A DNA stretch of 64,000 bases from Escherichia coli (GTDB taxonomy: Bacteria > Pseudomonadota > Gammaproteobacteria > Enterobacterales > Enterobacteriaceae): NCBI RefSeq assembly GCF_044324875.1, contig NZ_CP172185.1. The stretch is one strand, 5' to 3'. The notes below the pieces were generated by a model. It searched no databases and had not been told where the DNA came from. It was given only the letters and a program-made list of their open reading frames with translations. Made by a program: the position numbers and the translations under genes. Shown piece after piece: positions 32,535-32,566 of this stretch; positions within the stretch are counted from its first letter, which is position 1; every line of letters starts with the position of its first letter.

Positions 32535-32566
32535 TGATCGATCGGTTAATATTAATCGATCGATCA
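32535..32566. promoter_or_regulatory. 32-bp near-perfect palindrome tgatcgatcggttaatattaatcgatcgatca containing four GATC sites; candidate operator or structural element
   Basis: Checked base by base: 15 of 16 pairs complementary; lies about 55 bp past the rlmC stop and about 200 bp upstream of the PTS EIIC start. Confidence 0.5.

What the first reader, a model, noticed from the sequence alone, without database searches (positions are those of the whole stretch)
32535..32566. 32-bp near-perfect palindrome with four GATC sites upstream of the sulfatase-PTS operon
tgatcgatcggttaatattaatcgatcgatca is self-complementary at 15 of 16 positions and contains four Dam sites. It lies between the rlmC stop and the PTS EIIC start. 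It could be an operator for an unidentified regulator, a methylation-sensitive switch, or a hairpin terminating rlmC (a short T-run follows on the minus strand).
Basis: seen in the sequence. Interest (0 to 1): 0.5.

Follow-up and report, generated by a model that had tools for sequence, protein, structure and literature searches.

The report
Conserved hairpin palindrome downstream of rlmC
The palindrome is real and far longer than chance allows, but comparison with Salmonella and other enterobacteria suggests an ordinary RNA hairpin that ends or caps the rlmC transcript and shields the neighbouring sugar-sulfatase operon, not a methylation switch or an operator.

Summary
The 32-bp palindrome (32535-32566, 15/16, four GATC) is the core of a 46-bp dyad (32528-32573, 21/23). 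It is the longest palindrome and the densest GATC cluster in the window.

It lies 48 nt after the rlmC stop and 186 nt before the start of a three-gene island (PTS EIIC, EIIB, sulfatase). 566 of 5426 complete E. coli genomes carry this island.

- The dyad occurs once per genome, and only where the island follows rlmC (Escherichia, Salmonella).
- It is absent in Silvania, Leclercia and Yokenella, where the same operon has other upstream neighbours.
- Across nine sequences, 7 of 21 stem pairs changed on both sides and 92% of cells stay paired.
- One Salmonella lineage lost all four GATC sites but kept the stem.
- The A-rich and T-rich flanks are invariant.
- The operon's conserved control region starts just 3' of the dyad. 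It is colinear with the K-12 ulaA promoter, including a CRP-like site.

Best reading: a bidirectional terminator-like or insulator RNA hairpin for rlmC, with a weak U-tract (confidence about 0.5). The operator and Dam-switch readings are disfavoured. This is a new member of a known kind, of low to moderate interest.

The parts
32535..32566 (.). Core palindrome as reported: TGATCGATCGGTTAAT/ATTAATCGATCGATCA, 15/16, with four GATC sites at 32536, 32540, 32558 and 32562
32528..32573 (-). Full dyad, 23-nt arms with 21/23 paired. On the rlmC-sense (minus) strand it forms a 21-pair RNA hairpin with a 4-nt loop, an internal A.C mismatch and a G.U pair.
   Evidence: -27.2 kcal/mol, z -6.1; covariation
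32570..32579 (-). Invariant A-rich tract (AAATAATAA on the minus strand) 5' of the stem. On the + strand it is the T-rich tail TTATTATTT.
   Evidence: invariant columns 12-20 of alignment A3; + strand terminator-like call
32523..32531 (-). Invariant T-rich tract TTATATATT directly 3' of the stem on the minus strand. This is an interrupted U-tract.
   Evidence: invariant columns 58-66 of A3; narrowly misses the 5-of-8 T rule of the scan
32622..33749 (-). rlmC (23S rRNA m5U747 methyltransferase). Its stop codon lies 48 nt upstream of the dyad in the direction of transcription.
   Evidence: (TIGR02085, 732 bits)
32446..32516 (-). Conserved control block of the island operon, colinear with the K-12 ulaA promoter region. 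It is present in all nine enterobacterial copies, with or without the palindrome.
   Evidence: (A4)
32497..32512 (.). CRP-like site TGTGA-N6-TTGCA (8/10 of the core consensus). Its centre is about -60.5/-61.5 from the predicted start site. The half-sites are conserved and the spacer varies across genera.
   Evidence: only 0.03% of window positions score >=8/10. The consensus is from established knowledge; binding was not tested.
32451..32479 (-). Predicted sigma-70 promoter of the operon: -35 TTTAAA (32479-32474), 17-nt spacer, -10 TAAAGT (32456-32451), start near 32444. Inferred by colinearity with ulaA TTGTTG-N17-TAGAGT.
   Evidence: inference, no experimental start site
29162..32341 (-). 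Three-gene island operon: PTS EIIC (30998-32341), EIIB (30656-30976) and sulfatase (29162-30643). Together with both of its spacers (29112-32621) it takes the place of the 198-bp rlmC-artJ spacer of K-12.

Best explanation
The dyad most likely works as an RNA hairpin at the 3' end of the rlmC transcript.

- rlmC has no other terminator in island-bearing strains. RNA polymerase leaving rlmC therefore transcribes the dyad 48 nt after the stop codon.
- The RNA folds into a stem of about 21 bp, flanked by an A-rich tract on the 5' side and an interrupted U-rich tract (UUAUAUAUU) on the 3' side.
- This is the layout of a bidirectional intrinsic terminator.
- It would stop the housekeeping rlmC transcript, or, after Rho-dependent or leaky termination, cap it against 3' exonucleases.
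- It would also keep read-through out of the tightly regulated, ulaA-like (CRP and probably UlaR controlled) promoter of the PTS-sulfatase operon that begins right after it.
- On the other strand it would stop any transcription leaving that AT-rich promoter region antisense to rlmC.

Shown here: position, stability, covariation, invariant flanks, and restriction to the rlmC junction. Inferred: that termination or 3'-end protection actually occurs. The four GATC sites are then a by-product of the (GATC)2 content of the ancestral arms.
For: - Position. The dyad lies 48 nt after the rlmC stop with no other hairpin in between. K-12, which lacks the island, has a different hairpin immediately after the same stop.
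- Stability. It folds at -27.2 kcal/mol (minus strand) and -26.8 (plus strand), with z about -6. Salmonella orthologues give -19.9 to -24.8, also with z about -6.
- Covariation. In 9 distinct Escherichia and Salmonella sequences, 7 of 21 pairs changed on both sides and 91.9% of cells are paired. Structures slid by 1-3 columns give only 17-43% paired, and 0/500 shuffles reach the observed score.
- Centre and flanks. The centre varies in sequence and length: a 4-nt loop in Escherichia against 9-11 nt in Salmonella. The A-rich and T-rich flanks are invariant.
- Distribution. The dyad is present in every copy of the operon that follows co-directional rlmC (E. coli alleles, Escherichia spp., E. whittamii, S. 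arizonae, S. diarizonae, an S. enterica-type lineage). It is absent in Silvania and Leclercia, where the upstream neighbour is a divergent arylsulfotransferase-like gene. In Yokenella, a co-directional histidine kinase upstream carries its own GC-rich hairpin at its stop.
- Consensus scan. It calls the site terminator-like on the + strand, with 14 pairs and tail CGGTTATTAT.
- No sequence-specific repeat use. There is one copy per genome, so it is not a repeat family, and it matches no Rfam family.
Against: - The minus-strand tail is poor: 4 T in any 8-nt window, so the scan does not call it.
- A d'Aubenton-Carafa-type score, using a formula I recalled from memory, is negative for all orthologues and also for the K-12 rlmC hairpin.
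- A stem of about 21 AU-rich pairs is longer than typical intrinsic terminators.
- No 3'-end or read-through data could be found or produced.
- Covariation cannot tell an RNA hairpin from a DNA dyad. One-sided changes are G.U-compatible on the minus strand in three cases and on the plus strand in two.
- Six of the seven double changes sit on one Salmonella branch. They could stem from very few events, such as arm-to-arm template switching.
Confidence: 0.5

Rival explanations
1. The dyad is a selectively neutral or nearly neutral DNA palindrome. It arose at the rlmC-island junction, perhaps from a short (GATC)n tract. Its symmetry is kept by mutational mechanisms, namely intra-strand hairpin template switching and slippage, and not by selection for a function.
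For: - The stem diverged about 50% between S. arizonae-type and S. enterica-type sequences, while the flanks barely changed. Almost all compensated pairs lie on that one branch.
- Variants with a 4-bp deletion of one GATC unit exist in about 1% of island-bearing genomes (UTME-3, ESDR8), which indicates slippage.
- Quasipalindrome correction by template switching is established in E. coli (own knowledge).
Against: - The dyad has persisted since before the Escherichia-Salmonella split in every lineage examined that keeps the rlmC-island junction.
- At least three pairs show independent compensation or wobble intermediates in different lineages: columns 21/58, 23/56 and 27/52.
- The invariant A and T tracts around the stem suggest constraint.
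Confidence: 0.2
2. The dyad is a DNA operator. A dimeric or tetrameric regulator binds the two GATCGATC boxes, which lie 22 bp apart centre to centre, and modulates the PTS-sulfatase promoter from about -106. The regulator could be unknown, or UlaR acting through a distal auxiliary site that closes a repression loop.
For: - Dyad symmetry is present, with two self-palindromic boxes two helical turns apart.
- In K-12, UlaR binds the ulaG-ulaA spacer as well as a second site upstream of ulaR (PMC5934670).
- The derived S. enterica-type arm reads AATCAATTGATT, which resembles the AATCA/TGATT elements of the ula-like block.
Against: - Silvania, Leclercia and Yokenella have the same operon and control block but no palindrome.
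- The arm sequence changed at 6-8 positions per arm in one Salmonella lineage, and the arm spacing changed by 1 bp between genera. That is unlikely for a shared regulator.
- No regulator gene lies in the island.
- There is no second copy in any of 5426 E. coli genomes at BLAST sensitivity, and no half-site elsewhere in the window beyond chance.
- The E. coli arms do not resemble the ula-like operator elements.
Confidence: 0.12
3. The dyad is a Dam-methylation-sensitive element. It could be a pap/agn43/gtr-type epigenetic switch, in which a protein blocks methylation of the GATC cluster. Alternatively it could be a strong SeqA site that transiently silences the locus after replication.
For: - It has four GATC sites in 30 bp, the densest cluster in the window.
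- The GATC-type arms are conserved in all Escherichia and in S. arizonae and S. diarizonae.
- The agn43 OxyR/Dam region of K-12 also contains ATCGATCG...CGATCGAT.
Against: - The S. enterica-type lineage (L008, L046, L061) erased all four GATC sites while keeping the stem.
- The best match to the OxyR consensus is 12/20. The agn43 site scores 14/20 and the grxA site in this same window scores 17/20. A score of 12/20 is expected by chance in about 1 region in 10.
- The spacing of the boxes differs from agn43: 12 nt against 7 nt.
- The dyad does not overlap any predicted promoter; its centre is at about -106.
Confidence: 0.05

Closest known systems
Bidirectional Rho-independent terminators between E. 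coli genes, for example the hairpin directly after rlmC in K-12 that also ends the convergent artJ side
   Same: It is a stable hairpin just downstream of a stop codon, with an A-rich tract on the 5' side and a T-rich tract on the 3' side. The stem covaries while the flanks are conserved. It sits at the same genomic junction (the rlmC 3' end).
   Different: The stem is about 21 AU-rich pairs, not 6-12 GC-rich pairs. The U-tract is interrupted (UUAUAUAUU), so it fails the simple consensus on the rlmC strand. Termination has not been demonstrated.
REP/BIME and other 3' stem-loops that protect mRNA ends after Rho-dependent termination
   Same: It is an extragenic palindrome in the same spacer that holds REP sequences in K-12. 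It is a strong hairpin without a good U-tract, which fits a 3'-end cap.
   Different: It is single copy per genome and has no REP consensus, so it is not a repeat family.
Dam/OxyR phase-variation switches (agn43, gtr, opvAB) and Dam/Lrp (pap)
   Same: It has clustered GATC sites in an intergenic region next to horizontally acquired genes, and ATCGATCG motifs as in agn43.
   Different: The GATC sites are not conserved in one lineage that keeps the structure. The OxyR match is weak (12/20). There is no overlap with a promoter, and the box spacing differs.
ulaA promoter region of E. coli K-12 (CRP/UlaR/IHF controlled). This relates to the adjacent control block, not to the palindrome itself.
   Same: A colinear block of about 70 nt: TGCxx-N6-TCACA, AATAATC, GTGA, TTTGA, TA.AGTG.
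   Different: The palindrome lies upstream of this block and has no counterpart in the ulaG-ulaA spacer.

Membership tests
Intrinsic (Rho-independent) terminator | Stable stem-loop shortly downstream of a stop codon on the sense strand | tested here: met
   The hairpin starts 48 nt after the rlmC stop. It folds at -27.2 kcal/mol, z -6.1.
Intrinsic (Rho-independent) terminator | U-tract (at least 5 T in 8) directly after the stem | tested here: not met
   The minus strand has 4 of 8 (UUAUAUAUU) and is not called. The plus strand is called with tail CGGTTATTAT. A score from a formula recalled from memory is negative.
Intrinsic (Rho-independent) terminator | Stem kept by compensatory changes, with loop free to vary | tested here: met
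   7 of 21 pairs changed on both sides and 91.9% of cells are paired. The loop is 4 nt or 9-11 nt.
Intrinsic (Rho-independent) terminator | Transcripts actually end there | not testable with these tools
   No 3'-end data. Literature searches found none for this locus.
Transcription-factor operator of the downstream operon | Site travels with the regulated operon across genera | tested here: not met
   It is absent upstream of the orthologous operon in Silvania, Leclercia and Yokenella, which keep the ula-like block.
Transcription-factor operator of the downstream operon | Half-site sequence conserved | tested here: not met
   GATCGATCG became AATCAATTG in the S. enterica-type lineage, with mirrored changes on the other arm.
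Transcription-factor operator of the downstream operon | Protein binding | not testable with these tools
   It needs EMSA, ChIP or a pull-down.
Dam-dependent epigenetic switch (agn43/gtr/pap type) | GATC sites conserved where the element is conserved | tested here: not met
   All four were lost in L008, L046 and L061 while the stem was kept.
Dam-dependent epigenetic switch (agn43/gtr/pap type) | GATC sites embedded in an OxyR- or Lrp-type site that overlaps the promoter | tested here: inconclusive
   The OxyR consensus match is 12/20, which is not above chance for the region. Positive controls score 14/20 (agn43) and 17/20 (grxA). The dyad centre is about -106 from the predicted start. Lrp was not tested.
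Dam-dependent epigenetic switch (agn43/gtr/pap type) | Sites undermethylated in a subpopulation | not testable with these tools
   It needs long-read methylation data.
Repeated extragenic palindromes (REP/BIME, ERIC, MITEs) | Many copies per genome | tested here: not met
   There is one locus per genome in 566 genomes and none in the other 4860. The '2 places' reported are the two strands of the palindrome.
Known RNA families (Rfam 15) | Match at the gathering threshold | tested here: not met
   Only sub-threshold miRNA-type hairpin matches, at most 20 bits.

The most novel reading that the evidence does not exclude
The dyad acts at the DNA level. It would be a cruciform-prone, GATC-dense element whose methylation state, or binding by SeqA or another dimeric protein, sets the activity of the neighbouring ulaA-like promoter in Escherichia. 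Its arms would co-evolve unusually fast through hairpin-templated mutation, which in one Salmonella lineage purged all Dam sites.
Probability: 0.1. Interest if true: 0.5.

Novelty: new member of a known kind. Interest (0 to 1): 0.25.

Why it matters
If this reading is right, the element is a routine part of genome housekeeping. A hairpin insulates a constitutively transcribed rRNA-methyltransferase gene from a catabolic operon that should stay off until induced.

It is a clean small example of stem covariation over the Escherichia-Salmonella divergence. It also shows that a striking cluster of Dam sites need not mean Dam regulation.

The more useful by-product concerns the operon behind it. 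Its control region is a copy of the ulaA promoter architecture. A Neobacillus relative of the operon sits inside a complete ascorbate-type pathway that also encodes a sulfatase-maturing enzyme. This gives a testable idea for an uncharacterised accessory operon of O157:H7, human urine and faecal isolates such as 118UI, and some Salmonella: uptake of a sulfated ascorbate-like compound under CRP and UlaR control.

Tried and rejected
- Rfam scan of 32200-32800 at E<=10 gave only meaningless sub-threshold miRNA or snoRNA-type hits.
- Repeat-family idea: BLAST of the 50-bp dyad against 5426 E. coli genomes found only the one locus. At that database size a lone 16-nt half-site could not have been detected, so this is a weak test for extra half-sites. 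The half-site with up to 3 mismatches occurs nowhere else in the window.
- The metagenome scan with the conserved block gave 22 loci but only one new dyad variant (L068, perfect 15-nt arms) and one unrelated hit.
- The OxyR consensus scan (consensus from memory, validated on grxA and agn43) gave 12/20, not above chance.
- By eye, there is no attC R''/R' boxes. An IHF-consensus match appears only in the derived Salmonella arm.
- Small ORFs are not credible. A 24-codon ORF starts at the ATG in the 3' arm on the minus strand, but that ATG is ACG in O157 and most Escherichia. The 76-aa + strand ORF at 32534-32764 is antisense to rlmC.
- No promoter was predicted upstream of the dyad reading into it.
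- Literature searches for the locus, for 3'-end maps in EHEC and for bacterial ascorbate-sulfate use returned nothing relevant. Campos et al. 2004 on the ula promoters is not held.
- A d'Aubenton-Carafa-type terminator score was computed from a formula recalled from memory. MFE folding absorbs the A and U tracts into the stem, so the numbers are only indicative.

Full report
**Observation.** The sequence tgatcgatcggttaatattaatcgatcgatca is at 32535-32566, as reported. Its halves are complementary at 15 of 16 positions. It holds four GATC sites, at 32536, 32540, 32558 and 32562. The symmetry extends outwards: the repeat finder reports a 46-bp palindrome at 32528-32573 with 93% complementarity, and my scan finds 23-nt arms with two mismatches. 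It is the longest palindrome in the window; the next has 16-nt arms. Thirty Markov-simulated windows gave maxima of 13-17 nt. It is also the only place in the window with four GATC within 32 bp.

**Context.** The window is E. coli chromosome, 99.6% identical to strain 118UI over this spacer.
- All relevant genes are on the minus strand: potFGHI, ybjO, rlmC (32622-33749), then the spacer with the palindrome, then PTS EIIC (30998-32341), EIIB (30656-30976) and a sulfatase (29162-30643). artJ converges on the plus strand.
- The three-gene island is present in 566 of 5426 complete E. coli genomes, always on the chromosome and once per genome.
- K-12 lacks the island. There, the rlmC-artJ spacer holds REP-like sequence and a GC-rich hairpin directly after the rlmC stop. 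The two arrangements diverge at the last codon of rlmC and right after the artJ stop.
- The dyad lies 48 nt downstream of the rlmC stop and 186 nt upstream of the EIIC start. No regulator gene is in the island.

**Conservation within and beyond E. coli.**
- The two main island alleles, about 99% and about 91% identical to the window, both carry the dyad. They differ at the centre (A/T) and in outer pairs.
- About 1% of genomes (UTME-3, ESDR8) have lost one GATC unit by a 4-bp deletion.
- A scan of one genome per species found the operon in Escherichia sp. E1V33, Escherichia sp. MOD1-EC7003, E. whittamii, S. arizonae, S. diarizonae, Silvania confinis, Leclercia sp. and Yokenella regensburgei. 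More distant copies (56-69% protein identity) occur mainly in Firmicutes.
- Contigs encoding near-identical EIIC proteins added an S. enterica-type lineage (L008, L046) and a diarizonae-like one (L045).
- In every Escherichia and Salmonella copy the operon follows rlmC and a dyad is present at the homologous place.
- In Silvania and Leclercia the upstream neighbour is a divergent arylsulfotransferase-like gene, and no inverted repeat is found in the spacer.
- In Yokenella the upstream neighbour is a co-directional histidine kinase with its own 9-pair GC-rich hairpin at its stop.
- The dyad therefore belongs to the rlmC junction, not to the operon.

**Covariation.** I aligned nine distinct sequences (A3) and counted a 21-pair stem.
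- 91.9% of cells form standard pairs, against 17-43% when the 3' partner is slid by 1-3 columns.
- Seven pairs have changes on both sides, and 0/500 column shuffles reach the observed covariation score.
- The S. enterica-type lineage reads ACAATCAATTGA...TCAATTGGTTGT where E. coli reads GTGATCGATCGA...CCGATCGATCAT. All four GATC sites are gone but the stem is intact.
- Independent smaller events occur elsewhere. C-G, U.G and U-A appear at columns 21/58 (the U-A in E. whittamii). G-C, G.U and A-U appear at columns 23/56.
- The centre differs in sequence and length (loop of 4 nt against 9-11 nt). The flanks AAATAATAA (5') and TTATATATT (3') are invariant.
- Caveats: six of the seven double changes lie on one branch, and palindromes can be re-symmetrised by template switching (own knowledge). 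The number of independent events is therefore small, at least three. One-sided changes do not favour either strand (three against two), so RNA and DNA dyads cannot be separated on this basis.

**Where the operon's own control signals are.** A block is conserved in all nine enterobacterial copies, including those without the palindrome. It starts about 15 nt 3' of the dyad and reads TTTTGCAwAT..A.TCACAAAnAATCA..AATCTT..TGA..TTTGATTATTA.AGTG.
- It aligns colinearly with the K-12 ulaA promoter region.
- The Silvania copy scores 44 in local alignment to the ulaG-ulaA spacer, against a shuffle maximum of 30. The Salmonella, Yokenella and Leclercia copies score 31-35, only just above their shuffle maxima of 28-33. 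The E. coli copy on its own is not significant (24; 66 of 500 shuffles as high) and is linked through the family alignment.
- The block includes TGCAA-N6-TCACA (plus strand 32497-32512, 8/10 of the CRP core). Its half-sites are conserved and its spacer varies across genera. Such a score is reached at only 0.03% of window positions.
- By colinearity with ulaA (TTGTTG-N17-TAGAGT), I predict -35 TTTAAA (32479-32474), -10 TAAAGT (32456-32451) and a start near 32444. This puts the CRP-like site near -61 and the dyad centre near -106. This is inference; no start-site data exist for this locus.
- UlaR is a DeoR-type repressor whose only K-12 target region is the ula locus (PMC5934670). Control of the island operon by UlaR is a hypothesis.

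**Terminator assessment.**
- The RNA of either strand folds strongly: -27.2 kcal/mol (minus) and -26.8 (plus), z about -6. The orthologues give -19.9 to -24.8.
- The consensus scan calls the site terminator-like on the plus strand, with 14 pairs and tail CGGTTATTAT. It does not call the minus strand, where only 4 of 8 tail bases are T.
- A score computed from a formula recalled from memory is negative for this hairpin and also for the K-12 rlmC hairpin.
- The element thus has the architecture of a bidirectional terminator (A-tract, covarying stem, T-tract) but a sub-optimal tail for rlmC.
- It could terminate inefficiently, act with Rho, cap the 3' end after trimming, or be an RNase III target, given its roughly 21-bp stem. 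These variants cannot be separated here.

**Other readings.**
- Operator. This is disfavoured for three reasons. The site does not travel with the operon, the half-sites were rewritten in one lineage and their spacing changed by 1 bp, and no further copy exists.
- Dam switch. The GATC-type arms are ancestral and widely kept. However, the structure survives complete loss of GATC sites. The OxyR consensus match is 12/20, against 14/20 for agn43 and 17/20 for the grxA site at 42195-42231 in this window. The dyad overlaps no predicted promoter. Methylation state was not testable.
- Neutral palindrome kept symmetrical by mutation. This remains a serious rival. Persistence at every rlmC junction examined and the invariant flanks count against it.

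**Comparison and novelty.**
- The element works like a bidirectional intrinsic terminator or a 3' protective stem-loop.
- It fails one defining feature of canonical terminators on the rlmC strand (the U-tract). I therefore file it as terminator-like, not as a proven terminator.
- It is not a REP/ERIC-type repeat, not an Rfam family, and not demonstrably a Dam/OxyR switch.
- I found no description of it in the literature searched.
- Verdict: a new member of a known kind, of low to moderate interest. The ula-like control region and the likely substrate of the operon are the more promising leads.

Noticed in passing
window 32446-32516 (minus strand); L048 3355-3425: The control region of the PTS-sulfatase operon is colinear with the K-12 ulaA promoter: a CRP-like TGCAA-N6-TCACA near -61, AATAATC/GTGA/TTTGA elements, and a TA.AGTG -10. 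It is conserved in five genera. This suggests CRP and UlaR control of an accessory operon that has no regulator of its own.
   Followed up: partly
L047 (Neobacillus niacini contig), 3174-14189: The Firmicute homologue of the operon sits in a full pathway: PRD/EIIA regulator, FGE-type sulfatase maturase, EIIA, EIIC, EIIB, sulfatase, UlaG-like lactonase, UlaD, UlaE, UlaF and HPr. This points to a sulfated ascorbate-like substrate. The E. coli island keeps only EIIC, EIIB and the sulfatase, and would need the core ulaC/ulaG/ulaDEF genes. No literature was found on this.
   Followed up: partly
window 29112-32621 vs L007 6647-6844: The island, together with both of its spacers, takes the place of the whole 198-bp rlmC-artJ spacer of K-12 (REP-like sequence plus hairpin). 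The breakpoints are at the last rlmC codon (ATG TAA against CAA TAA) and right after the artJ stop. Since Salmonella and several Escherichia species have the island at the same site, it may be ancestral and lost in K-12-like lineages.
   Followed up: partly
L006 (UTME-3) about 3200-3215; L072 (ESDR8) 160-190: One arm of the palindrome has lost one GATC unit (a 4-bp deletion) in about 6-7 of the 566 island-bearing genomes. This is consistent with slippage in the (GATC)n arms.
   Followed up: partly
L044 (S. Weltevreden assembly) 4001-5692: A 563-aa ORF fuses the N-terminal part of potF to EIIC. This amounts to a deletion that removes potGHI, ybjO, rlmC and the palindrome in this assembly. I did not check whether it is a real deletion or a misassembly.
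   Followed up: no
window 42195-42231: This is the best match in the window to the OxyR consensus (17/20). It lies between the ybjC-like ORF (41844-42131, minus) and the grxA-like ORF (42276-42548, plus), the expected place of the known OxyR site of grxA. I used it as a positive control.
   Followed up: partly
window 29118-29150: A GC-rich hairpin (gccggagtggg...cccactccggc) sits between the convergent artJ and sulfatase genes. It is probably the bidirectional terminator at the other end of the island.
   Followed up: no
L015 4330-5556, L046 7248-8687, L012 3718-5107: Arylsulfotransferase-like genes (PF05935/PF17425) neighbour the operon in Silvania, in one Salmonella-type contig and in an Enterobacteriaceae MAG. 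This is a second sulfate-related gene associated with the island outside E. coli.
   Followed up: no
L066 (soil metagenome contig Ga0126379_10696169) 869-890: This is an exact 22-nt match to the conserved promoter block in an otherwise unrelated short soil contig. It is probably chance or an unrelated homologue.
   Followed up: no
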